This document shows positions 10,605 through 62,832 of a DNA stretch of 64,000 nt, in pieces. Source of the stretch: Parcubacteria group bacterium (GTDB lineage Bacteria; Patescibacteriota; Minisyncoccia; Moranbacterales; UBA2206); the NCBI GenBank assembly GCA_041675165.1, contig JBAYUI010000002.1, positions 376-64,375 on the forward strand, read 5' to 3'. The stretch's first letter is position 1. Every line of letters begins with the position of its first letter. The notes under the pieces were generated by a model. That model made no database searches, was not told where the DNA came from, and worked only from the letters and a program-made list of their open reading frames with translations. The position numbers were made by a program, and so were the translations under genes.

Positions 10605-13577
10605 ATGGAAGAAAACGCCAAATATAACCCGAAGGAAATTGAGGCCAAATGGCAGAAGTTTTGGCTTGAAAAAGGCGATTCTAAGATAGATAAAGACGAT
10701 GAAACCAAGAAGAAATTCTATATTTTAGACATGTTTCCCTATCCGTCCGGCAGTGGGCTGCATATGGGACACACGGAGAGTTATACGGCCAGCGATGTGG
10801 TTTATCGCTATAAAAAACTGCAGGGGTTTAATGTGCTTCATCCGCAAGGCTTTGATGCTTTCGGGCTGCCGGCGGAAAATTATGCCATTAAGACCGGCAT
10901 TTCTCCGGTGGAAACGACCAAGGCAAACATGGCCAATTATATCCGGCAGATGCAGTCACTCGGTTTTGCCTATGATTTTTCCGAAGCCGCGGTCACGTGC
11001 GATCCGGAATATTATAAATGGACGCAATGGATCTTCGGGGAATTTTTCAAAAACGGATTAGTATATAAAAAGACAGCCAAGACCAACTGGTGTTCTTCTT
11101 GTCAAACAGTGATTGCCAATGAACAAGTGTTGGATGGCAAATGTGAACGCTGCGGAACGGAAATTGAACAAAGAGCTGTACCGAGCTGGTTTTTCAAGAT
11201 CACGGATTTTGCCGAAGAACTAATTGGGGGATTGGACAAAGTTGATTGGCCGGAATATACCAAAAAGAATCAGAAAAATTGGATCGGAAAAAGTGAAGGA
11301 GTGACCGTTTCATTTGAAATAAAAATTTCAAATGAAAACGGAATTTCCAATTTCCAATTTCCAATTTCCAATAAAATCCAAAATCAAAATGATAAAAACC
11401 AAAAACAATTTATTGAGGTTTTTACCACCAGAATAGACACAATATATGGCGTGACTTATTTAGTTTTGGCACCGGAGCATGGGCTAGTTCAGGAACTGAA
11501 AAACGAGATCAAGAATTTTTCTGAAGTTGAAAAATATATTGAGCAAGCCAAAAACAAGACAGAGCTGAGCCGGATGGAGGCCAAAGAAAAAACAGGCGTG
11601 GAATTGCAAGGCATTAAGGCTATTAATCCATTTAATAATAAAGAAGTGCCGATTTTCATCGCGGACTATGTTTTGGCGCAATATGGCACGGGAGCAGTGA
11701 TGGCCGTGCCGGCTCATGATGAACGAGATTTTGAGTTTGCGAAGAGATATGATTTGGAAATCAAGGCAGTAATCGCCGTTGATGATTCTAATAGTTCTAT
11801 TTCTGTGGCAGTTTTAAGTTTCGCTAAAAAAATCGCGCAATATGCTTCAGAGAAAAAGATACTCGCAGTTTTCGATGGCGGAATTGGTTTGGATATTGCG
11901 TTTGGAAAAATTACCAGAAATCATGACGATATAGATTTACAAGTAGAAAGTGGTGAGCTTGATAAGTGGATAAAATATTTAGAAGAGGAAAATTTTAAAG
12001 TAAAAAAAAATCCTGATAAAAGATTTGATATTTATACGGCTGATAATGGTATTTTCCATATAGACTTCGGATGCTATATCGATCTGGATAAAAATAAAAA
12101 TGATAAGGATTATCTTATAAGAAATGTTATTGATGAGATTGAATTTGCAACTTTTAAACCAGGGGAAATATTAGAGTATAAAATTTCTGAAATAAAAAGA
12201 TTGGGAATCAAGAGACAAAAAGACTCGCATGATTTAGCCTTGCATAGCATGGAGGCTTTTGTGGAAGACGGATTTCTTATAAATTCCAGTGAGTATTCTG
12301 GATTATCTTCCAAAAATGCGCGGGAAAAAATGGCCGAATGGTTGGAAGAAAAAAAGCTTGGTGAAAAAATAACAAATTATCGTTTGCGGGACTGGTCCAT
12401 TTCTAGGCAGAGGTATTGGGGCTGTCCGATCCCGATCGTCTATTCTCCGGACGGGGAGGCGCATCTGGTTCCGGAGGAACATCTGCCGTGGAAATTGCCG
12501 ATGGACGTCGATTTTGTGCCGACCGGCACTTCGCCTTTGGCCAAGTCCGAGGAGCTGAAAAAACGGACGCAAGATTTTTTTGGTGCTGGCTGGACAGCGG
12601 AATATGACACCATGGACACCTTCGTTGATTCTTCGTGGTATTTCTTGCGTTATCCGGATGCGCACAACGACAAAGAATTTTGTTCCAAGGAGCGATTGAA
12701 AAAATGGTTGCCGGTGGACGTCTATATCGGTGGCGCGGAGCACACTTATATGCATCTGCTTTTCGCCAGGTTTTTTGTGAAAGCCATGCATCGGATCGGC
12801 CTTTTGGATTTCGATGAACCGTTTTTGAAGTTGCGCCATCAAGGGATGGTTTTGGACAAGGAAGGCAAGAAAATGTCCAAATCAAAGGGCAATGTCATCA
12901 ATCCGGACGAAATGGTGGAAAAATTCGGCGCTGACTCAGTGCGAGCGTATATGCTTTTCGCAGCGCCCTTGGAAGATGCTGTGATGTGGAATGAGGATAA
13001 TATTATTGGGGTGAGGAGGTTTTTGGAGAAAGTTTGGAAAATACAATATAAAATTACAAATGACAAATTGCAAATTTCAAATAAAGCTCAAAATCCAAAT
13101 GACCAAAATAAAAAACTAAATTCGCTGATACATAAAACCATTAAGAAAGTTGGAGAAGATATTGAAAACTTTAGATTTAATACGGCAGTGAGCCAGCTTA
13201 TGATACTCGTGAACGAGATGGAAAAACAAGAAGAATTAAGCATTACTGATTACGAATTATTGATTATTCTTCTTGCTCCATTTGCTCCACACATTGCCGA
13301 AGAAATTTTCCAAGAAGTTCTGGGTCACAAGGAATCGATATTTTTGCAGAAGTGGCCGGAGTTTTCTGAAACACTGACCAAGGATGAAGAGATCAATTTG
13401 GTGTTGCAAGTGAATGGCAAGGTGCGGGATATGGTGGCAGTGAGCGCAGATATATCAGAAGAAGAAGCGAAAGAAATCGCCTTGGTGAGTGAAAAAATCA
13501 AAAAGCATATTGCTGATAAAGAAATCAAGAAAATTATTTTTGTGAAAGGGAAGTTGGTTAATATCGTTGTAATGTAA
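10605..13577 (+). CDS. leuS: Leucyl-tRNA synthetase with an inserted nucleotidyltransferase domain and low-complexity inserts
   Basis: HMGH, KMSKS, editing-domain motifs TTRIDT and AVPAHDERD. 990 aa. Nucleotides 11760-12300 encode an ANT(2'')-like domain (GGIGLDIAFGKITRNHDDIDL). Confidence 0.95.
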   Translation: MEENAKYNPKEIEAKWQKFWLEKGDSKIDKDDETKKKFYILDMFPYPSGSGLHMGHTESYTASDVVYRYKKLQGFNVLHPQGFDAFGLPAENYAIKTGISPVETTKANMANYIRQMQSLGFAYDFSEAAVTCDPEYYKWTQWIFGEFFKNGLVYKKTAKTNWCSSCQTVIANEQVLDGKCERCGTEIEQRAVPSWFFKITDFAEELIGGLDKVDWPEYTKKNQKNWIGKSEGVTVSFEIKISNENGISNFQFPISNKIQNQNDKNQKQFIEVFTTRIDTIYGVTYLVLAPEHGLVQELKNEIKNFSEVEKYIEQAKNKTELSRMEAKEKTGVELQGIKAINPFNNKEVPIFIADYVLAQYGTGAVMAVPAHDERDFEFAKRYDLEIKAVIAVDDSNSSISVAVLSFAKKIAQYASEKKILAVFDGGIGLDIAFGKITRNHDDIDLQVESGELDKWIKYLEEENFKVKKNPDKRFDIYTADNGIFHIDFGCYIDLDKNKNDKDYLIRNVIDEIEFATFKPGEILEYKISEIKRLGIKRQKDSHDLALHSMEAFVEDGFLINSSEYSGLSSKNAREKMAEWLEEKKLGEKITNYRLRDWSISRQRYWGCPIPIVYSPDGEAHLVPEEHLPWKLPMDVDFVPTGTSPLAKSEELKKRTQDFFGAGWTAEYDTMDTFVDSSWYFLRYPDAHNDKEFCSKERLKKWLPVDVYIGGAEHTYMHLLFARFFVKAMHRIGLLDFDEPFLKLRHQGMVLDKEGKKMSKSKGNVINPDEMVEKFGADSVRAYMLFAAPLEDAVMWNEDNIIGVRRFLEKVWKIQYKITNDKLQISNKAQNPNDQNKKLNSLIHKTIKKVGEDIENFRFNTAVSQLMILVNEMEKQEELSITDYELLIILLAPFAPHIAEEIFQEVLGHKESIFLQKWPEFSETLTKDEEINLVLQVNGKVRDMVAVSADISEEEAKEIALVSEKIKKHIADKEIKKIIFVKGKLVNIVVM

Positions 13578-13579
13578 TA

Positions 13580-13668
13580 CAAATACGCGAATTTTACACA
13601 AATACGCGAATGCGCGAATGAATACCCATTCGCGTCATTCGCATCAATTCGTGTATTTGCATCAAATC
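13580..13668. repeat. Intergenic imperfect palindrome (cgcgaatg / cattcgcg units)
   Basis: caaatacgcgaatgcgcgaatgaatacccattcgcgtcattcgcatcaattcgtgtatttg. Confidence 0.5.
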
Positions 13669-13672
13669 TATT

Positions 13673-16351: not shown

Positions 16352-17428
16352 ATGGATATTGAAAAATTAGAGGTTTTCTTGCAAGAACACAATCAGCCGA
16401 AATTTCGTTTGAAACAGGTCAAAAAAGCCATTTTCCAGGATGGGATTTCGAGCTTTTCAGAAATTACGACACTGAGCAAGGAATTGCGCGAAGAATTGGC
16501 CAAAAAGATGGAAGTATTGTCTTTTTCGGTGGAAAAAGTATTAGTTTCCAAAGATGGAAAATCGGCCAAGGCACTCTTTAAGTTGCAGGACGGGAAATTC
16601 ATCGAAGCAGTCCTGATTTCTCCGCTTGAAAACACTTGGTCAGTGTGTGTTTCGTCGCAAGTCGGCTGTCCGTTGGGATGTGAATTTTGTTCAACGGGGC
16701 AGATGGGTTTCGTGCGGAATCTGACGGCCGAAGAAATCACGGATCAGGTTTTGTTCTGGAAAAACTTCCTCCGTAACCCCTCCGGTTTCACAACCCCTCC
16801 GCCCCGATTACGGGGCACCTCCCCTGAATACAGGAGAGGGGGAGTATTGAGCAATGTCGTCTACATGGGGATGGGGGAGCCGTTCCTCAATTGGAAGGAA
16901 GTGAGCCGAAGCTTGCATGATCTCATCGATCCGGAGTTGTTCGGTTTCGGCGCGCGGAGCATTTCGGTTTCCACGGCCGGCATTCCGGAAGGAATTCTCA
17001 AAATGGCTGAGGAATTTCCACAAGTGAATCTGGCACTGTCACTGCATTTCGGAAGGGATGAAAAAAGAAGTGAGATTATGCCCATCAATCGTCAGTATAA
17101 TCTGGAAGCTGTTCGAGAAGCACTCTGGAAATATTTTGAGCTGTCTAATCGAAAAGTTTTTTTGGAATACGTGATGCTTAGTGGAATAAATGACAGCCAA
17201 AAGGACGCGGAGTCCTTGGCGCGTTTCGTGAAATCCATCGGTAAGCTGCAACTTTTGCACATCAATCTGATCCGCTATAGCGCGACGGGTTCGAAATTCA
17301 AACCCTCAAGCAAAGAGCAGACGTTGAAATTCAAGAATTATTTATTGAGCCAGAATCTGAGCGTGACCATCCGGAAAAGCTTAGGGGAAGAAATACAGGG
17401 GGCGTGCGGACAACTCGCTTCGCACTAA
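16352..17428 (+). CDS. rlmN: 23S rRNA (adenine2503-C2) methyltransferase RlmN (radical SAM). Carries an in-frame palindromic insertion
   Basis: VGCPLGCEFCSTG radical-SAM motif, MGMGEPFLN. A 27-aa Pro/Gly-rich insert is encoded by the 16770-16846 element. Confidence 0.9.
   Translation: MDIEKLEVFLQEHNQPKFRLKQVKKAIFQDGISSFSEITTLSKELREELAKKMEVLSFSVEKVLVSKDGKSAKALFKLQDGKFIEAVLISPLENTWSVCVSSQVGCPLGCEFCSTGQMGFVRNLTAEEITDQVLFWKNFLRNPSGFTTPPPRLRGTSPEYRRGGVLSNVVYMGMGEPFLNWKEVSRSLHDLIDPELFGFGARSISVSTAGIPEGILKMAEEFPQVNLALSLHFGRDEKRSEIMPINRQYNLEAVREALWKYFELSNRKVFLEYVMLSGINDSQKDAESLARFVKSIGKLQLLHINLIRYSATGSKFKPSSKEQTLKFKNYLLSQNLSVTIRKSLGEEIQGACGQLASH
16770..16846. repeat. Compound-hairpin element inserted in-frame in rlmN (RPE-like), copy 1
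   Basis: acaacccctccgccccgattacggggcacctcccctgaatacaggagagggggag contains nested hairpins ccccg-atta-cgggg and cccctg-aata-cagg. Near-identical copy in dxs. Confidence 0.8.
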
Positions 17429-17459: not shown

Positions 17460-19385
17460 ATGAAAAAAAATAAATCAAAAAAAATATTAGACTCGATCAA
17501 TTTTCCGGCTGACCTGAGAAAATTGCCAAAAGAAAAGTTGTCCGAGCTGTGCAAAGAAGTGCGGCAGTTTTTGATCGATAGTGTGGCGGTGACGGGCGGG
17601 CATTTCGGCTCGAATTTGGGCGTGGTGGAGCTGACCGTGGCTTTGCATTATGTTTTTGAAACGCCGCAAGATAAATTGATCTGGGACGTTGGGCATCAGA
17701 GTTATCCGCATAAGATCCTGACTGGAAGAAAAGACAAAATGACGACGATCCGTAAATTTGGCGGGCTGGCACCTTTTCCCCGAAGGGAAGAAAGCGAATA
17801 TGACACTTTCAATGTGGGGCACTCCAGCACTTCTATCGGGGCGGCCGCCGGTATGGCGCTAGCCGAGCGTGACAAAAAAAATCCGGCGCAAATCGTGGCT
17901 ATCATTGGGGATGGGGCGCTGACTGGCGGGATGGCTTTGGAAGCGCTGAACCACGCGGGCGATGCGGCATCTGATATGCTGGTGATTCTGAATGACAATA
18001 AGATGTCCATTTCGCCGAACGTCGGGGCGATGGGTCAATATCTGACGCGACTCATTTCCTCGCCAGCTTACGTGAATACGCGTGCCAAGGGGCGGGAATT
18101 TTTTGATGCCGCGCCGCGCCTTAAAAGGATCCTGATGCGCGCCGAATCGCACACCAAAGGTATGATAGTGCCCGGCACGCTGTTCGAAGAATTGGGTTTT
18201 GAATATTATGGTCCGATCGATGGACACGATGTTTTGTCTTTGGTGGAAGTGCTTGAGAATTTGAAAAAAATCAAAGGGCCGAAATTTTTGCATATCTTGA
18301 CCAAAAAAGGCAAGGGCTATGCTCCCGCTGAAAATGACCGTTTGTCTTTTCATGCGGTGAAACCGTTTGATCCCATAACAGGCAAAAATATTCCCGGCAA
18401 ACAAAAAAGCAGTAGCTATACAGATATTTTTTCACAGTGGATCTGTGACAAGGCCGCGAAGGAAAAAAATTTGCACGCCATCACACCGGCCATGTGCCAT
18501 GGTTCCGGTCTGGTTGAGTTCAAAGAAAAATTTCCCTCTCGCTATCATGATGTGGGCATCGCTGAACAGCACGCGCTCACTCTGGCCGCGGGACTGGCTG
18601 CGGCGGGGAAAAAACCGGTCGTGGCCATCTATTCATCTTTTTTGCAAAGAGCTTATGACCAACTCATCCATGACATTGCTCTCCAAAATTTGAACGTCCT
18701 TTTGGCGATCGACCGCGCCGGCATTGTCGGGCCGGACGGCGCCACACATGCCGGCAGTTTCGATCTGTCATTTCTGCGGGTCATTCCCAATCTCGTTATT
18801 ATGGCGCCGAGGAATATCAGTGAATGTCGCGCTATGCTGGAAGTTGGTTTTGATCATAAGGGGCCGGTGGCGGTGCGTTATCCGAGAGGCGGGGATGTTG
18901 TTTCTTTGCAACCCCAACTGCAACCACAACCCCTCCGCTCCGACGATTACGTCGGAGCACCTCCCCTGAGTACAGGGGAGGGGGAATCACTCAAAATGGA
19001 AATTGGCAAGGCGCAGGTTTTGCGTGCTGGAAGAAACATTGCCATCTTGGCGTTCGGGGCGATGGTGGAAAGATGCAAAGCAGTGGCTGAAAATTTGGAT
19101 GCTACTTTGATCAATATGCGGTTTGTGAAACCGTTGGATGAAAAATTGCTGGAAGAATTAGCCAAGACGCATAAATATTTCATCACCGTCGAAGACAACG
19201 CCGTTCTCGGCGGCGCCGGCAGTGCGGTGGCCGAGTTTGTGTTGAATAATAAACTTTCTATTTCCATCAAAAACCTTGGTCTGCCCGATGAATTTTTGCC
19301 GCACGGTACGCGGGAAGAAATTTTGGCTCTGGCTGGCCTTTCGGGGGAGGAGATTGAAAAGGCGGTGAGGCGGTTTGTGGGATAG
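17460..19385 (+). CDS. dxs: 1-deoxy-D-xylulose-5-phosphate synthase. Carries the same in-frame palindromic insertion
   Basis: GGHFGSNLGVVELTVALHYVF, DVGHQSYPHKILTGR, thiamine-PP motif GDGALTGG. Extra ~25 aa (QPQLQPQPLRSDDYVGAPPLSTGEGES) from the 18908-18985 element. Confidence 0.95.
   Translation: MKKNKSKKILDSINFPADLRKLPKEKLSELCKEVRQFLIDSVAVTGGHFGSNLGVVELTVALHYVFETPQDKLIWDVGHQSYPHKILTGRKDKMTTIRKFGGLAPFPRREESEYDTFNVGHSSTSIGAAAGMALAERDKKNPAQIVAIIGDGALTGGMALEALNHAGDAASDMLVILNDNKMSISPNVGAMGQYLTRLISSPAYVNTRAKGREFFDAAPRLKRILMRAESHTKGMIVPGTLFEELGFEYYGPIDGHDVLSLVEVLENLKKIKGPKFLHILTKKGKGYAPAENDRLSFHAVKPFDPITGKNIPGKQKSSSYTDIFSQWICDKAAKEKNLHAITPAMCHGSGLVEFKEKFPSRYHDVGIAEQHALTLAAGLAAAGKKPVVAIYSSFLQRAYDQLIHDIALQNLNVLLAIDRAGIVGPDGATHAGSFDLSFLRVIPNLVIMAPRNISECRAMLEVGFDHKGPVAVRYPRGGDVVSLQPQLQPQPLRSDDYVGAPPLSTGEGESLKMEIGKAQVLRAGRNIAILAFGAMVERCKAVAENLDATLINMRFVKPLDEKLLEELAKTHKYFITVEDNAVLGGAGSAVAEFVLNNKLSISIKNLGLPDEFLPHGTREEILALAGLSGEEIEKAVRRFVG
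18908..18985. repeat. Compound-hairpin element inserted in-frame in dxs (RPE-like), copy 2
   Basis: acaacccctccgctccgacgattacgtcggagcacctcccctgagtacaggggagggggaa. Hairpins ctccgacg-atta-cgtcggag and tcccctg-agta-cagggga. Confidence 0.8.
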
Positions 19386-19398: not shown

Positions 19399-19430
19399 AT
19401 AGAGGCTTCTACGGAGACCTCTATTTTGTT
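19399..19430 (+). terminator. Putative terminator after dxs
   Basis: tagagg...cctcta stem followed by ttttgtt. Confidence 0.4.
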
Positions 19431-19497
19431 ATCAGTAGGACTTGCATCTTTTTCACATAATGATATAATATCATTGAAATCATTTAAAACAAAAAAG

Positions 19498-20301
19498 ATG
19501 AAAAATATTTTTGAAGAGATAAAAAGAATCAATGAATATGGAAGTGAATATTGGTCGGCGCGGGAGCTGTCTAAGGCGCTTGATTATTTTGATTATCGTA
19601 ATTTTATAAAGGCCGTAGATAAGGCCAAAGAAGCTTGCAAAAATAGTGGAGAAGTTATCCACAACCATTTTGTTGATGCCAACGAAATGGTTGCAATTGG
19701 TTCTAGCGCAAAAAGACAGGTAGATACGATTTATTTGTCCCGCTATGCTTGCTATTTGATTATTCAAAATTCTGACCCATCTAAAGAAATTGTTGCTTTG
19801 GGGCAGACATATTTTGCGTTGCAAACTAGACGGCAAGAAAAGACTGATCAGTTGATAGAAGACAGCAAGCGGATCAATTTGCGCCAGGAAATGAAAAAGC
19901 ATAATACTTCTTTGGCAGAAGCGGCGACAAATGCCGGAGTGGAAAATTATGGCAAGTTCCAAAACTATGGCTATAAAGGATTGTATGGCGGGCTGGATGC
20001 CAATGATATCCATGAAAAGAAAAAATTGAAAAAATCACAAAAAATTTTGGATCACATGGGCAGTGAAGAATTGGCCGCAAATTTGTTCCGTGCTACGCAA
20101 GCTGATGCAAAATTACGTCGGGAAAAAATCCAAGGCGAGATGAATGCGAATCTGACGCATTACGCAGTCGGACAAAAAGTTCGGAAAACCATCGAAGAGT
20201 TGGGCGGCGAAATGCCCGAAGATCTGCCCAGCACTGATGGCATCTGCCAAGCCAAGACTCGCGTTAGGAAAATAGACCAGAAGAAGATAGTAGGAGAGTA
20301 A
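19498..20301 (+). CDS. dinD: DNA-damage-inducible protein D homolog
   Basis: Strong similarity to the DinD family: EEIKRINEYGSEYWSARELSKALDY, RYACYLIIQN, GQTYFALQTRRQE, AGVENYGKFQNYGYKGLYGG. Low-GC context. Confidence 0.8.
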   Translation: MKNIFEEIKRINEYGSEYWSARELSKALDYFDYRNFIKAVDKAKEACKNSGEVIHNHFVDANEMVAIGSSAKRQVDTIYLSRYACYLIIQNSDPSKEIVALGQTYFALQTRRQEKTDQLIEDSKRINLRQEMKKHNTSLAEAATNAGVENYGKFQNYGYKGLYGGLDANDIHEKKKLKKSQKILDHMGSEELAANLFRATQADAKLRREKIQGEMNANLTHYAVGQKVRKTIEELGGEMPEDLPSTDGICQAKTRVRKIDQKKIVGE

Positions 20302-20388
20302 AGATTAAAAAATATTACTTTTATTGCATTTTTGCCAATTTTTATTTAGTGGAGTATGCTGGAGGAGTTTAAAGTTGAGGAAAGGGGC

Positions 20389-20417
20389 TTGACGGTGCGG
20401 AGTTATTGATATATAAT
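20389..20417 (+). promoter_or_regulatory. Strong sigma70-type promoter upstream of the 493-aa nuclease-like ORF
   Basis: TTGACG, 17-nt spacer, TATAAT. Confidence 0.5.
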
Positions 20418-20547
20418 TTACGCATAAAAACAGAAACACAAAAGGAAAGAAGAAAAATTTACGATTTTTGTCCGACAGACTGAAAAAGGACCGAATCTTA
20501 AAATCAAATACGGGTGAGTTTGCTTTTAAAAAAGGAAATTAGAAAGT

Positions 20548-22029
20548 ATGCCGCGACAATGCGTAGTATATTTTCTGGTTTCCTTTTTTTGTGGCATTAT
20601 GGCAATTTTATTAAGTGAATATTTAGGAGTAGATGCAAAAACTTTAAAAAATAAAGGCGTGTTCGACATGGTTATAGGGATAGATACGAAACTCTTTATT
20701 GATCCTCTTTTATTCAAAAAATGTGGAATTGCAGAATTTGTAGATTCCCGAAAAAAAATAATATTATATTTTAAAAAAGTTGTATCTCTTATAAAATATT
20801 TTTCAAACGATAGGGCACGTGAAGCTGCCATTCAATTGCTTACCTTTCCGGAACCTAAGGGCGTATCAATTGGTTATGGTTCAGACAATGATGATGGAAA
20901 TGCGATTGGACCAAAACTTGCAAAGCGACTAGCTGAATCTGGTCGAGAGATTTACGAAATGGGGATAGAAGATCCAGAAATATTTGAATTATTAGGATTA
21001 TTTGAAGAAGATTTTGGTCCTGACAGACTAAGTGATATGATAATAAATATAGTGTTATCTGATTTTTTTCGATATACTGAAAGAATTTGCGATGAACTTA
21101 AAATTAAACATACTTATGAATTTTTCCATGAGGATCATGAATTTTATTTGCCTCAACATCCCGATAAGCATGGATATTTGATATTTATTCCTGAGAAATT
21201 TCTTAGAAATTTGCCCGTAGCTTCTTCATGGGAGGAGGTGTGCGAATCCGCTCGATTTAATCAGGAATTGAGGAATCGTTTGAACAAGATGATGGCGGGT
21301 GTATTTAAAGGAAGCCATAGTAAAACAACAAAAAAACAATTAAGAGAGATTATTTTTAATAATAAAAATAATGTAAAGGAGCTTCTGGATGTGTATAAGG
21401 AGCTTGATCCGAGTGCATATGATTTTTTAGCTGATGTCCAGGGACACGGATTGTGGTATCAGAAGGGGAAAGAGATATTCGAAAAATATTATGAGTCTGA
21501 AAAATGCGAGAAACCAAAAAACATATGCGACCTTGATTCGTTTGTAGTGCGCATGATCAATCAATATAAGAGGGCAATTGAGGAAGTGGGCGCGAATAAA
21601 ATTTTATACTCTTTTAAAAAAGACAAATTTCATCCACATCGAGAGGAAATTGCTCAGCTTGTATTCTTGATTGTTGCAGATCTGAATTGCCAAAAGCAAG
21701 GAGTGTTTCTCGCCAGAGAATCAAATTATGGGCATGGCCCAGTAGATTTCTCCTTGGGGATAGGATATGATGAAAAAATTTTGGTGGAAATTAAAAAAAG
21801 TTCTAACCCTAATCTAATAAAGGGTTATATGGCACAACTTCCTGATTATGAAAAAAGTGAACATTCTGCAAAAAGTTATTTCGTAGTTTTGATTGTTGAT
21901 GAAAATAAAGAAAAAATCAAAAGACTTCTATCTAAAAAAACAGAGGCTAATAAAGAAGGGAAGAAATCCCCTGATATTATACTTATAGATGCAACAATTA
22001 AACCGTCTCCTAGTAAGCTAAGAACTTAA
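20548..22029 (+). CDS. Large hypothetical protein with a C-terminal PD-(D/E)xK nuclease-like motif
   Basis: 493 aa, very AT-rich. C-terminal GHGPVDFSLGIGYDEKILVEIKKS fits a D...E-x-K restriction-endonuclease-like core. The N-terminal ~350 aa match no family. Start uncertain. Confidence 0.55.
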   Translation: MPRQCVVYFLVSFFCGIMAILLSEYLGVDAKTLKNKGVFDMVIGIDTKLFIDPLLFKKCGIAEFVDSRKKIILYFKKVVSLIKYFSNDRAREAAIQLLTFPEPKGVSIGYGSDNDDGNAIGPKLAKRLAESGREIYEMGIEDPEIFELLGLFEEDFGPDRLSDMIINIVLSDFFRYTERICDELKIKHTYEFFHEDHEFYLPQHPDKHGYLIFIPEKFLRNLPVASSWEEVCESARFNQELRNRLNKMMAGVFKGSHSKTTKKQLREIIFNNKNNVKELLDVYKELDPSAYDFLADVQGHGLWYQKGKEIFEKYYESEKCEKPKNICDLDSFVVRMINQYKRAIEEVGANKILYSFKKDKFHPHREEIAQLVFLIVADLNCQKQGVFLARESNYGHGPVDFSLGIGYDEKILVEIKKSSNPNLIKGYMAQLPDYEKSEHSAKSYFVVLIVDENKEKIKRLLSKKTEANKEGKKSPDIILIDATIKPSPSKLRT

Positions 22030-22099
22030 AATAAAAACAAGATTCGGCAAATAGGTCGATGCCGATATAATTCGAAATAATAACTAATAAAAAAATAAA

Positions 22100-22273
22100 A
22101 TGAACAGACTTGAAGTTTATCAAGGTAACGATGGAAAATATTACTGCAGGCTTGTGGCAAGCAATAATACTATTGTATGCTGGACAGAGGGATACAATTC
22201 ACACGAGAATGCCCTAAAGGCAGCAATGTGGATAAAAAAGAATGCTGGTTTTGCCATCATCATGGAAAAATAA
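22100..22273 (+). CDS. DUF1508 / YegP-family small protein
   Basis: 57 aa, MNRLEVYQGNDGKYYCRLVASNNTIVCWTEGYNSHENALKAAMWIKKNAG, the canonical YegP repeat. Missed by the >=60-aa ORF track. Confidence 0.7.
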   Translation: MNRLEVYQGNDGKYYCRLVASNNTIVCWTEGYNSHENALKAAMWIKKNAGFAIIMEK

Positions 22274-22657
22274 TTTCACATTTCATTAGAACCTGAGGAA
22301 TGACTTATGCTGTCGTTGGATATAAAACTACGATGATTGCGGATTTTACCCGCGGGACATAAGAACAATGATTCCAATTGTGATTGAAGAAGTTATTTTG
22401 CAAGAACCAGCTCGATTAGGGCTGGTTTTTGTTTCCACTGGAATTCCCCGTTTGTGTTGTCTGGGATTTTTGATAAGCTCAAGGGTGAGAAAGAGCTGAT
22501 TTTTTTGAAGGAGAAAAATATCAAGCATTGCATCGGCTTTGAAAATAGATGAAATTGTTGAAAGAATTAATTCATGAATTAACTCCTGAATTTTAAAAGG
22601 GCAAACTCCGCTTTGAGGAATTTGCCCTTTTGTTTTTTGCGATACAAGCCAACTGGA

Positions 22658-23338
22658 TCAGATTTGTTTTCTGCCCAACTTGATGTCGATAGCCTCGAAG
22701 ATGTATTTGACGTATTCGGTGATTGTCATGCCTTCTGGTCGGGCACTCGGATCGTTTTCTGTGGATTCATCGGCGCGACGCAAGATTTCTTGCACCTGTT
22801 CGTCATCGAAACTGATGAGGCCGAGGAAATGATATTTTCCGAGCTCAAGCGCCAGGTCTTCCCATTCTTTGAGACCGGAGCAGGCGCCGGAACAGAAAAT
22901 TTGGAAGTGATGGCCTCTCTGGGATATGAAATAGAAAAACAGTTCGGCCGAGCCGCCCCATTCGCCGTTTTTCGGATTACGGCTTTCATGGGAACAGATA
23001 TGATTCTTGTGACGCGTCGTACGAGCCACTTTCTCCTGGCAGAAAATCCTGCAATTATTCTCGAAATCTTCACTAGGAAAACTTTTGCCGATTTTTTCTA
23101 CGAACCCGAAATGATGTTGGGCCTGGTAGAAAATACTGGTGCTCCAGACCGCGCGGCGCTCGGGAACCGCAGTCAGGCCATTTTCCAGCATCAGCGTCAG
23201 CACATCTTCGGTTGCGCCGGCAAAGGTTCTCTCTATCCACCGATCATCATTATTGAAAAAGCGCCGGTAGAGTTCAGGATGATCCTTCTCCTTGACTATG
23301 ATTGGAGCAAGGTCTTCGATTCTGTTGATTGATGACAT
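22658..23338 (-). CDS. Hypothetical protein, possibly heme-oxygenase-like/TenA-type all-alpha fold
   Basis: 226 aa from MSSINRIEDLAP..., SD ggagag 5 nt upstream. The family assignment is a weak guess. Confidence 0.45.
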   Translation of the reverse strand: MSSINRIEDLAPIIVKEKDHPELYRRFFNNDDRWIERTFAGATEDVLTLMLENGLTAVPERRAVWSTSIFYQAQHHFGFVEKIGKSFPSEDFENNCRIFCQEKVARTTRHKNHICSHESRNPKNGEWGGSAELFFYFISQRGHHFQIFCSGACSGLKEWEDLALELGKYHFLGLISFDDEQVQEILRRADESTENDPSARPEGMTITEYVKYIFEAIDIKLGRKQI

Positions 23339-29080: not shown

Positions 29081-29267
29081 ATTACGAACTACGAAATGAA
29101 CGAAATACGAAAAAGTCTTCATTCTAGGCGGAGTCTCCTTTTTGAGGCCGTAGCCTTGGAAGCAGAAATGCGGTATTAGACACTGGGTGTCTAGCGCTAC
29201 TTAATCCTTCGCCTCGAGACACCCAGTGTCTGAGGGGTGCCGTCTTTCTTATGGATACTCTTGCATT

Positions 29268-36169: not shown

Positions 36170-36310
36170 ATTTTTTATCAATCAAATTTAGATAATAAAT
36201 CCAAAATCCAAATATCAAATGTCAAATAAAATCCCAAGCTCTAAATTCAAAATTTTGACATTTGAACTTTGAAATTTATTGGAAATTTGGATTTTGACAT
36301 TTGGATTTTA
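36170..36310. repeat. Long intergenic hairpin made of simple repeats (aaatccaaaat... / ...atttggatttt)
   Basis: aaatccaaaatccaaatatcaaatgtcaaa...tttgacatttgaactttgaaatttattggaaatttggattttgacatttggatttta. Confidence 0.6.
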
Positions 36311-42152: not shown

Positions 42153-43265
42153 ATGAAACAGGAAAAGCTAAAAATTTTAGTCGGGATGAGCGGCGGGGTG
42201 GATTCGAGTGTGGCGGCGGCCTTGCTTAAATATCAGGGCTATGATGTCACGGGTCTTTTTATGCGGATGCATAAAGGAGAAGGGGTGGAAAAAGATCTGG
42301 CGGACGTGATAAATGTGTGTGAAAAATTGGGCATCCCGTTGCAGACAGTTGACGTGCGGCGCAAATTCCAAAAAGAAGTGGTGAAATATTTTCTCTCCGA
42401 ATATGCCGCCGCGCGGACGCCCAATCCGTGCGTTTTTTGCAATAAGAATTTCAAGTTTAAGATTTTGCTGGAAGAAGCTAAAAAGATTAAGGCAGATTAT
42501 GTTGCTACAGGTCATTATGCGAGAATAACCAAGATACAAGAAACAATAACCAAGCAAAATCCAAAATCCAAAATTCCAAATTACAAATTAAAAACCGCTA
42601 AAGACAAAAGCAAAGACCAATCATATTTTCTATATCGCCTAGGACAAGAAGAATTGGCTATGATTATTTTTCCACTGGGGGAATATGAGAAAACTGAAGT
42701 GAAGAAGCTGGCGAAAAAGTTGGGGCTCGAGGTGAGTGAGAAAAAGGAATCGCAGGATGTGTGCTTTATGGCCGGGCTGACGAAGGAAGCATTCCTCAAG
42801 AGGAATCTGAAACTTGAGAAAGGCAAGATAGTTGACGTGCAGGGTGAAATTATTGGGGAGCATAGCGGCTTGCCGTTGTATACGCTCGGGCAGAGAAAAG
42901 GCATCCATATCGGCGGCACAGGACCATATTATGTGGTGGATAAAGATTTTAAGCAGAACCGACTGGTGGTGACGAATGATAAAAAAGCGGCCGCATTATT
43001 TTCTACAACGATAAATCTGGAAGATGTTAATTGGACCTTTGGCGCAGCGCCTAAGTTGCCCGTGCGGGTTCTGATGCGCAGCCGGTACCGAAATCCTTTG
43101 GTTTATGCTACAATTAAGTCACAAATCAGTACGAATAAAAAATCCGCGAATAGTTACGAGTATAGCGTTAAATTTGAAAAGCCGGAGAAGGCAGCGGCTA
43201 GCGGCCAGTCAGTAGTGTTTTATACCAAAGCCGGCGAAGTGATCGGCGGAGGGATAATAAAATAA
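42153..43265 (+). CDS. mnmA: tRNA-specific 2-thiouridylase MnmA, with an in-frame low-complexity insert
   Basis: PP-loop ILVGMSGGVDSSVAA, DQSYFLY. Insert TKIQETITKQNPKSKIPNYKLKT is encoded by caaaatccaaaatccaaaattccaaattacaaat. Confidence 0.9.
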   Translation: MKQEKLKILVGMSGGVDSSVAAALLKYQGYDVTGLFMRMHKGEGVEKDLADVINVCEKLGIPLQTVDVRRKFQKEVVKYFLSEYAAARTPNPCVFCNKNFKFKILLEEAKKIKADYVATGHYARITKIQETITKQNPKSKIPNYKLKTAKDKSKDQSYFLYRLGQEELAMIIFPLGEYEKTEVKKLAKKLGLEVSEKKESQDVCFMAGLTKEAFLKRNLKLEKGKIVDVQGEIIGEHSGLPLYTLGQRKGIHIGGTGPYYVVDKDFKQNRLVVTNDKKAAALFSTTINLEDVNWTFGAAPKLPVRVLMRSRYRNPLVYATIKSQISTNKKSANSYEYSVKFEKPEKAAASGQSVVFYTKAGEVIGGGIIK

Positions 43266-43380
43266 AAATTTCAAAATCCAAAATCCAAATGATAAATAAA
43301 ATCCAAATGACAAAAATTTGAAATTTGTCATTGGAAATTGATTTGACATTAGGACTTTGAAATTTGGATTTACAACTTAT
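43262..43380. repeat. Long intergenic simple-repeat hairpin (aaaatccaaat units)
   Basis: aaaatttcaaaatccaaaatccaaatgataaataaaatccaaatgacaaaaatttgaaatttgtcattggaaattgatttgacattaggactttgaaatttggattt. Confidence 0.6.
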
Positions 43381-56911: not shown

Positions 56912-57277
56912 ATGCAACACAAGAATAAAACTAAAGAATTCGGAAGGACTGCCAGCCAGAGGAAGGCGCTTTGGCGCACGATGTTGGGAAGCCTGATCAT
57001 CAGTGAAAAGATCGAGACGACTGAAGCAAAAGCCAAGGAATTGAAGGGTAGGATCGATAAAATCATCAATAAGGCCAAGAAATATCCGAAAGAAGGAGAG
57101 CAGAGACTGGCCGCAAGAAGAAATCTGAAAAAAGACATCCCGCTTATGGCTGTAGAAAAAATGATGGGAGAATTTTTGAAAAAATTTGAAAATAGACGAA
57201 GCGGCTATACGCGAGTGATTAAGCTGGCTCCGCGCAAAAGTGATAACGCCAGATTAGCGATAATCGAATTCGTGTAG
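56912..57277 (+). CDS. rplQ: Ribosomal protein L17
   Basis: RKALWRTMLGSLIISEKIETTEAKAKELKG...YTRVIKLAPRKSDNA. Confidence 0.92.
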   Translation: MQHKNKTKEFGRTASQRKALWRTMLGSLIISEKIETTEAKAKELKGRIDKIINKAKKYPKEGEQRLAARRNLKKDIPLMAVEKMMGEFLKKFENRRSGYTRVIKLAPRKSDNARLAIIEFV

Positions 57278-57372
57278 GTTACGAAATACGAAATAAATAC
57301 GAAATACGAAAAAATTAAAATACGGAGAATGTCAATATGGTAACGTTTCGTATTTAGTAAATTTCGTAGTTC
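57278..57372. repeat. Intergenic simple-repeat hairpin (acgaaatacgaaa / tttcgtatttcgt units)
   Basis: ttacgaaatacgaaataaatacgaaatacgaaaaaat...aacgtttcgtatttagtaaatttcgtagttcgtaaat. A related acgaactacgaaatgaacgaaatacgaaa sits after parB (29083-29112). Confidence 0.6.
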
Positions 57373-57386
57373 GTAAATAGAAATTT

Positions 57387-58325: not shown

Positions 58326-58353
58326 AAAAAAGACACCCTAGCGGGTGTCTTTT
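58326..58353. terminator. Bidirectional terminator between rpsI (+) and rpmE (-)
   Basis: aaaaaagacaccc-tagc-gggtgtctttt. Confidence 0.6.
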
Positions 58354-62047: not shown

Positions 62048-62131
62048 GAAGGCATATTAGCAGTTTATCATTTTAGCAAAACTCTTTTTTATGCTAATAT
62101 GTTAAAATGTTAATATGATGAAATGAATATT

Positions 62132-62240: not shown

Positions 62241-62517
62241 GCCGTTGTAGCTCAGTTGGTAGAGCATTTCCATGGTAAAAATTTGCCCACCGTTTGGAAA
62301 ACTAAACAGTGCATACCCGAATAACGGTTAAAGACCTAGTATCAGGTTCAGACCGTGGCATCTTGTTGTGGCAAGAGGCCCGAACGACTGACAAGGGGGG
62401 CTAAATCCCACGTAAATGGGACATGTCCGATATACAGTCTAATCCTTTAATAGATATTTTATAAAATAAAGGTTCAAATGAAGGAAAAGGTCTCCGGTCC
62501 GATTCCGGACAACGGCT
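62241..62517 (+). tRNA. tRNA-Thr(GGU) interrupted by a 204-nt intervening sequence after anticodon-loop position 36
   Basis: 5' half 62241-62276 gccgttg/ta/gctc-agttggta-gagc/a/tttcc-atGGT. 3' half 62481-62517 aa-ggaaa/aggtc/tccgg-tccgatt-ccgga/caacggc/t. The halves give a perfect 73-nt cloverleaf that parallels tRNA-Thr(UGU). Confidence 0.75.
62277..62480 (+). ncRNA. Putative self-splicing (group I-like) intron inside tRNA-Thr(GGU)
   Basis: 204 nt. The 5' exon ends in U and the intervening sequence ends in G (ggttcaaatG), as at group I splice sites. Internal hairpins (cccacgtaaatggg, ggacatgtcc). gactg...cagtc could form a P7-like pairing. No ORF. Confidence 0.45.
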
Positions 62518-62549
62518 CAGTAAGTTGTAATTATGTAATATCTAATAAT

Positions 62550-62705
62550 ATGGCACGAGAAAACCTAGTGAAGATGAAATGCAGCGTGTGCAATTCCATC
62601 AATCATTTCACGAAAAGGAATAAGAAGAAGATCAAGGAGAAATTGGAGCTGAAGAAGTTCTGCAAGAAATGCCGAACAAATACGGTGCATAAGGAGATGA
62701 AATAA
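62550..62705 (+). CDS. rpmG: Ribosomal protein L33 (zinc-ribbon form)
   Basis: MARENLVKMKCSVCNSINHFTKRNKKKIKEKLELKKFCKKCRTNTVHKEMK, 51 aa. The 62478 start in the ORF track overlaps the tRNA exon and is not real. Confidence 0.85.
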   Translation: MARENLVKMKCSVCNSINHFTKRNKKKIKEKLELKKFCKKCRTNTVHKEMK

Positions 62706-62832
62706 GACCCGGCTGCGGCGGAATTTTCAATTCACAAATTTTCAATTTTCAATGAATTTTCAATTCTTTAATTTTTAAATTTTAAAATTGGGATTTGTTT
62801 GAAAATTGAAAATTGGAGTTTGAAAATTCCAT
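62706..62832. repeat. Intergenic simple-repeat hairpin (ttttcaatt / aattgaaaa units)
   Basis: ttcaattcacaaattttcaattttcaatgaattttcaattc...ttgaaaattgaaaattggagtttgaaaattcc. Confidence 0.55.

What the first reader, a model, noticed from the sequence alone, without database searches (positions are those of the whole stretch)
11320..62832. Genome-specific family of long simple-repeat hairpins in intergenic regions, with the same motifs appearing as in-frame low-complexity inserts in leuS and mnmA
At least seven intergenic regions consist of a run of short tandem motifs followed by its reverse complement: 785-915, 13580-13668, 29083-29112, 36170-36310, 43262-43380, 57278-57372 and 62706-62832. Motifs include caatattcaat, aaatccaaaat, acgaaatacgaaa and ttttcaatt. 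These would form 40-60 bp imperfect stems, plausibly bidirectional terminators. The caaaatccaaat and tccaattt motifs also occur inside coding sequence: leuS 11335-11420 and 13060-13110, and mnmA 42545-42585. There they encode Asn/Gln/Lys/Pro-rich inserts (ISNFQFPISNKIQNQNDKNQ, NKAQNPNDQNKK, KQNPKSKIPNYK) absent from orthologs. This suggests one slippage or insertion process that creates both hairpin terminators and tolerated protein inserts.
Basis: seen in the sequence. Interest (0 to 1): 0.5.

Follow-up and report, generated by a model that had tools for sequence, protein, structure and literature searches.

The report
Seven-base repeat hairpins and protein inserts
This small groundwater-type (CPR) bacterium is peppered with short 7-base tandem repeats that form long hairpins between genes and add low-complexity loops to essential proteins. 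The repeat type is already known from other bacteria and is shared with this organism's relatives, so it is not unique to this genome.

Summary
Six of the seven listed spacers are long imperfect hairpins (RNA fold z -2.9 to -7.0). 29083-29112 is only a tandem array. I found one more hairpin at 62053-62117.

The unifying feature is that the arms are degenerate heptanucleotide tandem repeats. Period 7 is the only enriched period. The inserts in leuS and mnmA are the same kind of array read in frame: (AATTTCC)n gives NFQFPIS and (CAAAATC)n gives QNPKSKI.

The family is not genome-specific.
- Relatives carry different-unit hairpins in the same leuS-downstream spacer, or none (4-12 nt spacer).
- (AATTTCC)x3 or longer occurs in at least 120 places in reference genomes. 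Of the 80 titles listed, 45 are CPR/Patescibacteria.
- About half of these arrays lie in frame in housekeeping genes.
- The LeuRS and MnmA loops are recurrent hot spots.

None of the hairpins has a U-tract. One lies between divergent promoters. Canonical terminators exist elsewhere in the window. The terminator reading is therefore weak.

Best explanation: slippage-driven heptanucleotide repeats, duplicated in inverted orientation in spacers and filtered by selection in genes. The closest precedent is the paired GGGAATC heptamer arrays of Xanthomonas. Verdict: a new member of a known kind, of moderate interest.

The parts
785..907 (.). hp1: hairpin of degenerate heptamers (CAATATT / CAATAAC / CAATACT ...). 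Arms are 785-842 and 850-907. It lies between the start of a 75-aa minus-strand membrane ORF (405-632) and atpD (952).
   Evidence: 58-nt arms, 78% complementary. (z -5.4). (flanked by divergent promoter-like sites at 727..699 on the minus strand and 916-943 on the plus strand). Read directly from the arm sequences: both arms carry the same out-of-phase CATT after the fourth unit.
13572..13667 (.). hp2: hairpin filling the leuS-stop to NTP-transferase-start spacer. Units are 8 and 17/18 nt (ACAAATACGCGAAT..., CGCGAATG), not 7.
   Evidence: z -7.0; the orthologous spacer is 6 nt in L002, and carries hairpins with different units in L001 and L245.
29083..29112 (+). (TACGAAA)x4 tandem array 3 nt after the parB stop. 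Not a hairpin.
   Evidence: (z +0.39).
36197..36309 (.). hp3: hairpin of AAAATCC / AAATGTC / AAATATC units. It abuts the dprA stop (36308-36310, minus strand) and lies 65 nt upstream of the topA start (36131).
   Evidence: (z -3.2).
43260..43378 (.). hp4: hairpin of AAAATCC / AAATGAY units filling the spacer from the mnmA stop (43263-43265) to the next ORF (ATG at 43379).
   Evidence: z -2.9; aligns with hp3, including the irregular AAATAAAATCC unit..
57280..57378 (.). hp5: hairpin of TACGAAA units between the rplQ stop (57275-57277) and the rplM start (57387).
   Evidence: (z -5.0).
62706..62845 (.). hp6: hairpin of AATTTTC units (62722-62830) inside a short G+C clamp, between the rpmG stop (62703-62705) and tRNA-Trp (62846).
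   Evidence: (z -4.7).
62053..62117 (.). Additional hairpin of 8-nt units (TAATATGT / TAAAATGT) between tRNA-Thr and tRNA-Tyr.
   Evidence: z -3.0.
11331..11405 (+). leuS insert 1: a perfect (AATTTCC)x4.4 array (11342-11372) plus a degenerate G-poor tail. It encodes ISNFQFPISNKIQNQNDKNQ, in the loop between WIGKSEG and FTTR.
   Evidence: The basal loop is 16 aa; here it is 40 aa.
13044..13112 (+). leuS insert 2: a degenerate (CAAATTA)n array followed by AAAATCC / AAATGAC units. It encodes QYKITNDKLQISNKAQNPNDQNKK.
   Evidence: L002 has the same 93-nt segment with a perfect (ACAAATT)x4.
42545..42596 (+). mnmA insert: (CAAAATC)x3 followed by CAAATTC / CAAATTA units. It encodes KQNPKSKIPNYK, in the loop between GHYAR and KDQSYFLY.
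   Evidence: +12 aa relative to E. coli MnmA (2DER); loop length is 13-55 aa among the first 70 of the 113 relatives parsed (those printed), median 24 over all 113.

Best explanation
What it is. These are heptanucleotide simple-sequence repeats. The units are strand-asymmetric and A/T-rich, with one or two C on one strand: AATTTCC, AAAATCC, AATTTTC, AATATTC, CAAATTA, TACGAAA.

How it most likely works.
1. Arrays arise and are kept homogeneous by replication slippage on 7-nt units. This step is inferred. The preference for heptamers is a described property of prokaryotic SSRs.
2. In the very short spacers of this compact genome, an array becomes duplicated in inverted orientation. A likely route is intramolecular template switching (inferred). 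The result is a 30-60 bp imperfect, register-slippery hairpin that now makes up almost the whole spacer.
3. Inside genes, only arrays that are stop-free, a multiple of 3 nt in total and located in permissive surface loops survive selection. A 7-nt unit read in any of the three frames gives the same 7-aa repeat, so the survivors appear as N/Q/K/S/I/F/P-rich inserts.

Function. The hairpins are most likely tolerated by-products. At most they add secondary effects on mRNA 3' ends. They are not dedicated intrinsic terminators.

Distribution. The phenomenon is widespread in CPR/Patescibacteria and occurs sporadically elsewhere. This genome is about ten-fold richer in such hairpins than the average LeuS-neighbourhood of its relatives.
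For: Shown:
- Period 7 (and 14) is the only enriched repeat period in the window. It is the modal tandem-repeat period in 1.1 Mb of relatives chosen without regard to repeats: 46 arrays, against 27 for 9-mers and 26 for 6-mers.
- The hairpins are real. Pairing is best in the central register and next best at +/-7 nt.
- Both arms of hp1 carry the same out-of-phase CATT after the fourth unit, read from the arm sequences. hp3 and hp4 share the irregular AAATAAAATCC unit. The hp1 observation indicates inverted duplication.
- Spacer comparison: the leuS-downstream spacer holds hairpins of three different units in the window, L001 and L245, and is 4-6 nt in L002 and L243. L002 has a heptamer hairpin between atpD and atpC, where the window has 39 nt.
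- Coding arrays: (AATTTCC)x4 is perfect in both the window and L001 although flanking coding DNA is only 79% identical. I read this as concerted evolution.
- The same LeuRS loop carries AATTTCC, AGTCAAA or other arrays in L001, L192, L205, L223, L248 and L252. Among 110 relatives the loop ranges from 16 to 58 aa.
- In L246 the unexpanded 16-aa loop reads ...EFPISNSQF..., encoded by GAATTCCCAATTTCTAATTCCCAATTTC. This is already repeat-like and a plausible slippage seed.
- The MnmA loop likewise carries heptamer-coded peptides in many relatives, such as QITNYKLQITN, ISNFKFQISN, FPISNFQFPN and KSQKSKV.
- Of 124 (AATTTCC)x3-or-longer arrays, 59 are in frame with the C-type strand as sense, 12 with the G-type strand as sense, 49 are outside long ORFs and 4 are ambiguous.
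- Ten of the host ORFs were scanned against Pfam. They are MnmA, LeuRS, a second class I tRNA synthetase, a formyltransferase, LepA, a family-4 glycosyltransferase, a pseudouridine synthase, a radical SAM protein, LigA and TopA.
- Period-7 hairpin density is 62 per Mb in the window, 5.5 per Mb in the unbiased relatives and 39 per Mb in genomes that carry an AATTTCC array.

Literature:
- Heptamers are the most abundant long-unit SSR in most prokaryotic genomes, and polymerase slippage was proposed as the cause. This is Mrazek 2007 as summarised in PMC4679880 and PMC4692102.
- In Xanthomonas, GGGAATC arrays are 89-93% intergenic and lie on average 28 nt from the 5' neighbouring ORF. In 70-75 cases they occur as convergent pairs able to form stem-loops.
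Against: - No strain-level data were available to show length changes in 7- or 21-nt steps. L002 and L244 are identical, and the source contig was found only once.
- Orthologous arrays in window/L001 and window/L002 have identical lengths. Slippage with free length drift would not predict this.
- The same unusual units recur at several loci in 64 kb: TACGAAA at 2 loci, AAAATCC at 4, and a 24-nt composite at 3. The same AATTTCC array appears in distant phyla. That hints at copying between loci or a sequence-specific process rather than purely local seeding.
- Arrays are polar, with perfect units at the 5' end of the C-type strand and a degenerate tail at the 3' end (88 against 26). Simple slippage does not explain this.
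- Three differently built hairpins in one spacer could also mean selection for a hairpin at that position.
Confidence: 0.62

Rival explanations
1. The hairpins are functional RNA elements selected at gene ends. They would act as factor-independent or bidirectional terminators, or as 3' stem-loops that protect upstream mRNA, as REP sequences do in E. coli.
For: - Five of the six listed hairpins, and the parB array, begin 0-15 nt after a stop codon.
- hp5 follows rplQ and hp6 follows rpmG. Both are common operon ends (general knowledge).
- The leuS-downstream spacer has a hairpin in three of five relatives, each with different units. This could reflect convergent selection.
- In Xanthomonas the repeat type (single or inverted pair) is usually preserved between species, and most are transcribed.
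Against: - None has a T/U tract, and stems have few G-C pairs. The terminator scan lists none of them.
- The scan does find canonical terminators at 2866-2900, 10470-10499, 58328-58353 and 62922-62959.
- hp1 lies between divergent promoter-like sites and so would not be in either transcript.
- hp2, hp4 and hp5 fill the spacer up to 0-8 nt before the next start codon. That leaves no room for a new promoter.
- L002 and L243 do without a hairpin after leuS.
- There is no sequence conservation and no alignable orthologues on which to test covariation.
Confidence: 0.2
2. They are copies of very small mobile palindromic elements (MITE-, REP/REPIN- or Rickettsia-RPE-like). These would insert into spacers and, in frame, into genes.
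For: - Presence/absence at orthologous sites with otherwise conserved flanks.
- hp3 and hp4 align over about 120 nt, including irregular units.
- hp1 and the L002 atpD-atpC hairpin share CATTCAATA..CAAT and a CAATGT loop.
- A 24-nt composite occurs at three loci.
- NPNDQN-type tails recur in different genes and genomes.
- The same genome does hold other small palindromic inserts in frame: CACCTCCCCTGARTACAGG in rlmN and dxs.
Against: - No terminal inverted repeats distinct from the array, and no target-site duplication visible at filled against empty sites.
- Units differ from locus to locus: at least 6 units in 64 kb.
- Coding copies are single-armed. None of the 5 arrays inside ORFs in the window has an inverted partner.
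- About half of the AATTTCC arrays abut unique sequence with no shared tail.
- The LeuRS loop contains a native proto-repeat that can seed the array locally.
- No transposase was seen among the genes examined.
Confidence: 0.13
3. The arrays are binding platforms for a protein that reads 7-nt units on single-stranded nucleic acid (cold-shock-type OB folds bind one heptamer per protein) or on DNA. They would be maintained for regulation or nucleoid organisation.
For: - Perfect (AATTTCC)x4 is conserved at all three codon positions between the window and L001 despite 21% divergence in the flanks.
- Heptamer direct repeats are bound one protein per unit by CspB, as reviewed in PMC4679880.
- The same unit recurs in many phyla.
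Against: - Many different units coexist.
- Arrays are lost or replaced between close relatives.
- Placement inside essential coding loops has no obvious regulatory logic.
- No candidate protein was identified.
Confidence: 0.05

Closest known systems
Paired (convergent) GGGAATC heptameric SSRs of Xanthomonas campestris and X. axonopodis, and GGGGA(T/C)T repeats of Nostoc (Rehm et al. 2015, PMC4692102)
   Same: Both consist of tandem 7-nt units at many loci. Both are mostly intergenic, between co-oriented genes and close to the end of the upstream ORF. Arrays frequently occur as two convergent copies that can form stem-loops or cruciforms. Length and sequence vary between related genomes while the position is kept. 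A minority lie in coding regions.
   Different: Units here are A/T-rich and have no G-runs, so G-quadruplexes and i-motifs are not possible. Several different units coexist instead of one genome-typical unit. A much larger share lies in frame inside housekeeping genes. The host is a CPR bacterium with very short spacers, so the hairpin makes up nearly the whole spacer.
Long simple sequence repeats with 5-11 nt units (Mrazek, Guo & Shah 2007) and cyanobacterial STRR heptamers. STRR is cited from my own knowledge (Mazel et al. 1990) and is mentioned for Calothrix in PMC4692102.
   Same: There is an excess of heptanucleotide units over other unit lengths, and a slippage origin has been proposed. 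The phylogenetic distribution is sporadic.
   Different: Those surveys did not cover CPR genomes. They reported that units in multiples of three dominate inside genes, whereas here 7-nt units are common in genes, tolerated in 21-nt multiples. The inverted arrangement is not part of the STRR description.
TAACTGA direct repeats of marine Beggiatoaceae, some Cyanobacteria and Bacteroidetes (MacGregor 2015, PMC4679880)
   Same: Heptamer arrays in intergenic regions. The same unit is shared across distant phyla with no evident transfer mechanism. Close relatives show indels in 7-nt steps. Relatives have shorter, repeat-free spacers at the same position.
   Different: TAACTGA arrays lie mainly just upstream of start codons. 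They are almost never inverted (1 indirect set against 169 direct sets). They contain stop codons in the forward orientation.
Rickettsia palindromic elements (RPE; Ogata et al. 2000, from my own knowledge)
   Same: Small repeats inserted in frame into essential protein-coding genes at structurally permissive sites, as well as into spacers.
   Different: RPEs are conserved palindromic elements of about 100-150 bp. The coding inserts here are single-armed simple-repeat arrays of 30-75 nt with no conserved element sequence.
REP / BIME / REPIN extragenic palindromes (PMC3116915)
   Same: Imperfect palindromes in spacers after genes, often inside operons. A possible mRNA-stabilising side effect.
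   Different: REPs have a conserved consensus sequence and a cognate RAYT transposase. Here the sequences differ by locus, the arms are internally repetitive, and no RAYT was seen.

Membership tests
Heptanucleotide simple-sequence repeats (LSSR / STRR type) | Head-to-tail tandem copies of a 7-nt unit, at least about 3 copies | tested here: met
   TRF and my own lag analysis find such arrays at 786-842, 881-906, 11342-11372 (4.4 perfect copies), 13051-13082, 29083-29112, 36197-36228, 36254-36303, 42555-42594, 43272-43366, 57280-57311 and 62722-62828.
Heptanucleotide simple-sequence repeats (LSSR / STRR type) | Excess over chance and over other unit lengths | tested here: met
   Period 7 gives 5 regions against 0.05 in shuffles, and other periods give about 0, apart from 14 (5 regions), 12 (3), and 8 and 15 (1 each). 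Period 7 is modal in the window and in the unbiased relatives.
Heptanucleotide simple-sequence repeats (LSSR / STRR type) | Copy-number polymorphism in unit steps between strains | not testable with these tools
   No second strain was found. L002 equals L244, and the source contig is on record once.
Heptanucleotide simple-sequence repeats (LSSR / STRR type) | One dominant genome-typical unit (as in STRR, GGGAATC or TAACTGA) | tested here: not met
   At least six units occur in 64 kb: AATTTCC, AAAATCC, AATATTC, AAATTTC/AATTTTC, AAATTAC and TACGAAA.
Xanthomonas-type paired convergent heptamer arrays | Two arrays of complementary units in inverted orientation, close together | tested here: met
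   Four were recovered by an independent ungapped scan.
Xanthomonas-type paired convergent heptamer arrays | Intergenic, nearer to the end of the upstream ORF than to the downstream ORF | tested here: inconclusive
   Five of the six listed hairpins start 0-15 nt after a stop codon. Because the spacers are tiny, three of them also end 0-8 nt before the next start.
Xanthomonas-type paired convergent heptamer arrays | G-run units able to form G-quadruplexes | tested here: not met
   Units contain at most GG on the G-type strand.
Intrinsic (rho-independent) terminators | G+C-rich stem followed by a T/U tract | tested here: not met
   None of the hairpins appears in the terminator scan. Inspection of their 3' flanks shows no T-run. 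Canonical sites exist at 2866-2900, 10470-10499, 58328-58353 and 62922-62959.
Intrinsic (rho-independent) terminators | Located at the 3' end of a transcription unit | tested here: inconclusive
   hp5 and hp6 are at plausible operon ends. hp1 lies between divergent promoter-like sites. hp2 and hp4 leave no room for a downstream promoter.
REP / REPIN | Conserved palindromic consensus shared by many copies | tested here: not met
   Hairpin sequences differ by locus. Only hp3 and hp4 align well.
REP / REPIN | Cognate RAYT (IS200/IS605-like) transposase in the genome | not tested
   Only one 64-kb window was available, and only genes flanking the hairpins were scanned.
Rickettsia palindromic elements (RPE) | In-frame insertion into conserved protein-coding genes | tested here: met
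   LeuRS and MnmA here. Ten further host ORFs in other genomes were confirmed as conserved protein families.
Rickettsia palindromic elements (RPE) | The insert is itself a conserved palindromic element of about 100-150 bp | tested here: not met
   Coding arrays have no inverted partner: 0 of 5 in the window, and 15 of 162 period-7 arrays inside ORFs in the genome-scan loci. There is no conserved element sequence.
MITE | Terminal inverted repeats plus target-site duplication at filled against empty sites | tested here: not met
   Filled/empty comparisons at leuS-3' and atpD-atpC show no duplication or distinct termini.

The most novel reading that the evidence does not exclude
The arrays are not seeded only locally. 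A sequence-directed process disperses defined heptamer blocks between loci and between CPR lineages, and so writes both the spacer hairpins and the protein inserts. Candidate processes are a very small mobile element, inter-array gene conversion, or templated repeat addition at breaks.

Pointers:
- The same 24-nt composite occurs at three loci in this window.
- The unusual unit TACGAAA occurs at two loci.
- (AATTTCC)n with NPNDQN-type tails recurs in unrelated genes of distant CPR classes.
- Arrays are strongly polar.
- Orientation is biased about 5:1 towards the C-type strand as sense.
Probability: 0.15. Interest if true: 0.75.

Novelty: new member of a known kind. Interest (0 to 1): 0.42.

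Why it matters
The origin and role of heptameric repeats in bacteria remain unexplained in the literature I could read. PMC4692102 states that no detailed literature on heptameric repeats was available at the time.

CPR genomes would be a clean natural experiment for three reasons.
- The genomes are tiny and the spacers are only 4-12 nt long, so every array stands out as an insertion.
- Many related genomes allow filled and empty sites to be compared.
- The same essential-protein loops (LeuRS, MnmA) are hit again and again.

That last point makes two things directly measurable. One is how a DNA-level slippage process creates low-complexity protein segments. The other is how much frameshift hazard an essential gene tolerates, since only changes of 3 units keep the frame.

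There is also a practical use. Peptides such as ISNFQFPISN in CPR proteins should be read as repeat-derived inserts, not as functional motifs. Long A/T-rich hairpins after genes in these genomes should not be annotated as terminators without evidence.

Tried and rejected
- Rfam at gathering threshold finds only four tRNAs and no family for the hairpins.
- Chance or A/T-rich background is rejected by shuffles.
- Assembly artefact is rejected. Arrays keep the reading frame inside conserved genes, and they recur in assemblies from different sources (JGI, ENA, NCBI).
- A fixed 'C-rich arm first' polarity looked consistent in the window. It fails in the wider sample: 24 G-first against 13 C-first.
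- A conserved 3' tail after (AATTTCC)n is only partial. Many arrays abut unique sequence.
- Look-ups of the exact L17 and L13 proteins, intended to find sister strains, returned nothing.
- L002 and L244 turned out to be the same sequence, so they give no polymorphism data.
- Elhai et al. 2008 and Mrazek et al. 2007 are not held in the library. One literature search was wasted on the acronym STRR.
- A peptide-level database search for NFQFPIS repeats was considered and dropped. The inserts are only about 10 aa long, too short for significance.

Full report
**Source and context**

The window comes from a Parcubacteria/Moranbacteria-like CPR metagenome-assembled contig. Its LeuRS is identical to a protein named 'MAG... 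Parcubacteria group bacterium' on a 72-kb contig, and the nearest hits are Moranbacteria. The ENA contig is 100% identical over 23 kb. Genes are almost all on the + strand and are housekeeping genes: atpD/C, a hydrogenase/complex-I-like cluster, leuS, rlmN, dxs, parAB, topA, dprA, mnmA, alaS, ribosomal proteins and tRNAs.

**Check of the observation**

- The inverted-repeat tool finds arms of 58, 56, 41 and 31 nt at 785/850, 36197/36253, 13572/13627 and 43260/43341.
- Folding the seven listed spacers as RNA gives z-scores of -5.4, -7.0, +0.39, -3.2, -2.9, -5.0 and -4.7.
- Six are therefore real hairpins. 29083-29112, just after parB, is only a (TACGAAA)x4 tandem array.
- An independent seed-and-extend scan recovers four of the six listed hairpins. 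That one is built of 8-nt units and has z -3.0.
- The motifs are far above chance. AAATCCAAAAT occurs 6 times exactly against 0.37 expected. TACGAAATACGAAA gives 7 against 0.84. AATTTTCAATTTTC gives 14 against 5.8.

**What unifies the loci**

- TRF assigns period 7 to nearly all of them.
- In a lag analysis, period 7 and its multiple 14 are the enriched periods, and shuffles give about 0.
- hp2 is the exception, with 8- and 17/18-nt units.
- Units are A/T-rich with one or two C on one strand and no G.
- Because 7 and 3 are coprime, a heptamer array encodes the same 7-aa repeat in all three frames. (AATTTCC)n gives NFQFPIS, (CAAAATC)n gives QNPKSKI and (CAAATTA)n gives QITNYKL. These are exactly the 'low-complexity' peptides in LeuRS and MnmA.
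- The link between hairpins and coding inserts goes beyond unit identity. The 24-nt composite AATAAAATCCAAAATCCAAATGAY occurs, with up to 3 mismatches, in leuS insert 1, leuS insert 2 and the 5' arm of hp4, against 0 expected.

**Not genome-specific: spacers**

I compared the window with three syntenic relatives.
- L001: LeuRS 81% identical.
- L002 (identical to L244): 87% identical over the aligned part, with the same gene order from atpD to parA.
- L245: 78% identical.

Coding DNA is 75-82% identical between the window and these relatives.

In the spacer between leuS and the NTP-transferase gene:
- the window has hp2;
- L001 has a hairpin of AATTTTY units;
- L245 has a hairpin of AAAGTTT units with the G-containing arm first;
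- L002 and L243 have spacers of 6 and 4 nt.

Conversely, L002 has a 120-nt heptamer hairpin between atpD and atpC, where the window has 39 nt. The hairpins therefore turn over quickly at orthologous sites, and they account for nearly the whole length of the spacers that hold them.

**Not genome-specific: coding inserts**

LeuRS loop between WIGKSEG and FTTR:
- The basal length is 16 aa, and among 110 relatives the loop ranges from 16 to 58 aa.
- The window, P0002/L001, P0006 and P0010 share ISNFQFPISN. P0004 has a decayed copy.
- Other lineages have KSQKSKV, from (AGTCAAA)n, or FSIFNFQFSN, from (AATTTTC)n.
- Others carry peptides encoded by G+C-rich palindromes.
- In L246 the unexpanded loop (…EFPISNSQF…) is encoded by GAATTCCCAATTTCTAATTCCCAATTTC, which is already repeat-like. 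This gives a natural seed for local expansion.

Array homogeneity:
- The (AATTTCC)x4 block is perfect in both the window and L001, while the tail and the flanking gene have diverged by about 20%.
- This is the signature of concerted evolution within an array rather than of protein-level constraint.

LeuRS insert 2:
- It is orthologous between the window and L002 (93 nt in both). It is perfect (ACAAATT)x4 in L002 and decayed in the window.
- In L245 it is replaced by (GTCACAA)x4.
- In L001 it is absent.

MnmA loop between GHYAR and KDQSYFLY:
- It is 12 aa longer than in E. coli MnmA, PDB 2DER.
- Among the first 70 of the 113 relatives parsed (those printed) it is 13-55 aa long; the median over all 113 is 24.
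- It carries a different heptamer-coded peptide in almost every lineage.

**Wider distribution**

Of the 80 titles shown, 45 are CPR/Patescibacteria from many classes.
- The remainder are scattered: Saprospiraceae, other Bacteroidota, Nitrospirae, a Gemmatimonadota, a Planctomyces, a Verrucomicrobiota, a Caulobacteraceae and a cyanobacterium.
- Of 124 arrays, 59 lie inside long ORFs with the C-type strand as sense, 12 with the G-type strand as sense, 49 are outside long ORFs and 4 are ambiguous.
- Ten host ORFs scanned against Pfam are MnmA, LeuRS, a second class I tRNA synthetase, a formyltransferase, LepA, a family-4 glycosyltransferase, a pseudouridine synthase, a radical SAM enzyme, LigA and TopA.
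- Of 106 period-7 arrays outside ORFs in these loci, 39 have an inverted partner nearby. Arm order is not fixed: 24 G-first against 13 C-first.
- Arrays are polar, with a sharp 5' edge of perfect units and a decaying G-free tail on the 3' side (88 against 26).
- In 1.1 Mb of LeuS neighbourhoods chosen without regard to repeats, period 7 is still the commonest tandem-repeat period.
- Period-7 hairpins there number only 5.5 per Mb, against 62 per Mb in the window. This lineage is rich in them but not unique.

**Function**

The terminator idea fares poorly.
- None of the hairpins has a T-tract, and their stems have few G-C pairs.
- The consensus scan lists none of them. It does find ordinary terminators after atpC (2866-2900), before leuS (10470-10499), after rpsI (58328-58353) and after tRNA-Trp (62922-62959).
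- hp1 lies between a strong minus-strand promoter-like site (TTGACT-17-TATAAT, 727..699) for a called 75-aa membrane ORF and a plus-strand site (916-943) just before atpD. It is probably in neither transcript.
- hp2, hp4 and hp5 run from the stop codon to within 0-8 nt of the next start.

In favour of some RNA-level effect:
- Five of the six listed hairpins follow a stop codon.
- hp5 and hp6 sit at usual operon ends.
- One spacer has gained a hairpin in three relatives.

With spacers this short, position alone cannot discriminate. No orthologous hairpins are alignable, so covariation could not be tested.

**Origin of the hairpin form**

- Pairing is best in the central register and next best at shifts of 7 nt.
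- The two arms of hp1 carry the same out-of-phase CATT after the fourth unit, read from the arm sequences. hp3 and hp4 share an irregular AAATAAAATCC unit.
- The hp1 arms are therefore inverted copies of each other, not two independent arrays.
- A template-switch or inverted-duplication origin is inferred, not shown.
- No terminal repeats or target duplications are visible at filled against empty sites.

**Comparison with what is known**

- Heptamers are reported as the most abundant long-unit SSR in most prokaryotic genomes, with polymerase slippage proposed as the cause. This is Mrazek 2007 as summarised in PMC4679880 and PMC4692102.
- The closest precedent is Xanthomonas. Its GGGAATC arrays are 89-93% intergenic and lie on average 28 nt from the 5' neighbouring ORF. 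In 70-75 cases they form convergent pairs able to make stem-loops, and their length varies between species.
- TAACTGA repeats of Beggiatoaceae are another case of a heptamer shared across phyla with no known mechanism.
- My searches found no paper on such repeats in CPR bacteria. That is absence from this library only.
- The present case differs in four ways: A/T-rich units that cannot form quadruplexes, several units per genome, a high share of in-frame arrays in essential genes, and recurrent use of the same protein loops.

**Verdict**

The common-process idea is right. The 'genome-specific', 'absent from orthologs' and 'terminator' parts are not supported. It is a new member of a known kind, heptanucleotide SSRs including inverted pairs, with a useful twist for understanding CPR protein inserts.

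What remains unexplained:
- recurrence of identical units and composites at several loci and in several phyla;
- array polarity;
- the strand bias.

These keep a more active dispersal mechanism open at low probability.

Noticed in passing
window 16796-16834 (rlmN) and 18897-18976 (dxs); L002:10697-10783; L245:9049-9219: A second family of in-frame inserts made of G+C-rich palindromes. rlmN and dxs both contain CACCTCCCCTGARTACAGG (2 exact sites, 0 expected), within inserts that are absent from relatives. L002 has a similar palindrome in the LeuRS loop in place of the heptamer array. L245 has a G+C-rich palindrome nested inside heptamer remnants in the same loop.
   Followed up: partly
window 209-305 and 27934-28121: Two copies of a MITE-like element with about 24-nt terminal inverted repeats (GTCAGAACCRCTGATT..CACATGA) and an inner CACGTG-containing palindrome. 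One copy lies after the first ORF of the window. The other lies exactly between the parA stop and the parB start and has about 90 nt of extra internal sequence.
   Followed up: partly
window about 19400-24400: A 5-kb segment absent from the syntenic relative L002. G+C drops to 0.35. It encodes a Bro-N domain protein, a DUF8370/DUF8371 protein, a DUF1508 protein and a minus-strand 250-aa ORF. It is probably a small integrated island.
   Followed up: no
window 10605-13577 (LeuRS, about residues 395-590): LeuRS carries an extra domain of about 190 aa after the editing domain. Precomputed Pfam gives PF10706, aminoglycoside adenylyltransferase-like. Other Moranbacteria have a NUDIX domain (PF00293) at the same position, and some relatives (P0003, P0005, P0006) have neither.
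   Followed up: partly
window 29376-29428: A near-perfect 25-bp hairpin (z -9.4, -40 kcal/mol) in the spacer after parB. It is not repeat-based, and its nature is unknown.
   Followed up: no
window 50205-50274; L002:8030-8098; L245 (Proton_antipo_M gene): A G+C-rich 32-nt tandem repeat, GCCTCCGCTAAAGCTACGGCGTGGCAAAGCCT, is intergenic in the window. It has 83% identical copies inside a complex-I-like membrane subunit gene of L002. A related in-frame insert (QGYGVARPASAQGY) occurs in L245.
   Followed up: no
window 62922-62959: A perfect 18+18-nt palindrome flanked by A5/T5 directly after tRNA-Trp. It is a textbook bidirectional intrinsic terminator and a useful contrast to the heptamer hairpins.
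   Followed up: yes
L146:3366-7073 (Paceibacteria): A class I tRNA synthetase ORF of 1236 aa, apparently IleRS, with a histidine-phosphatase domain (PF00300) inserted in the catalytic domain. It also carries an (AATTTCC)n insert.
   Followed up: no
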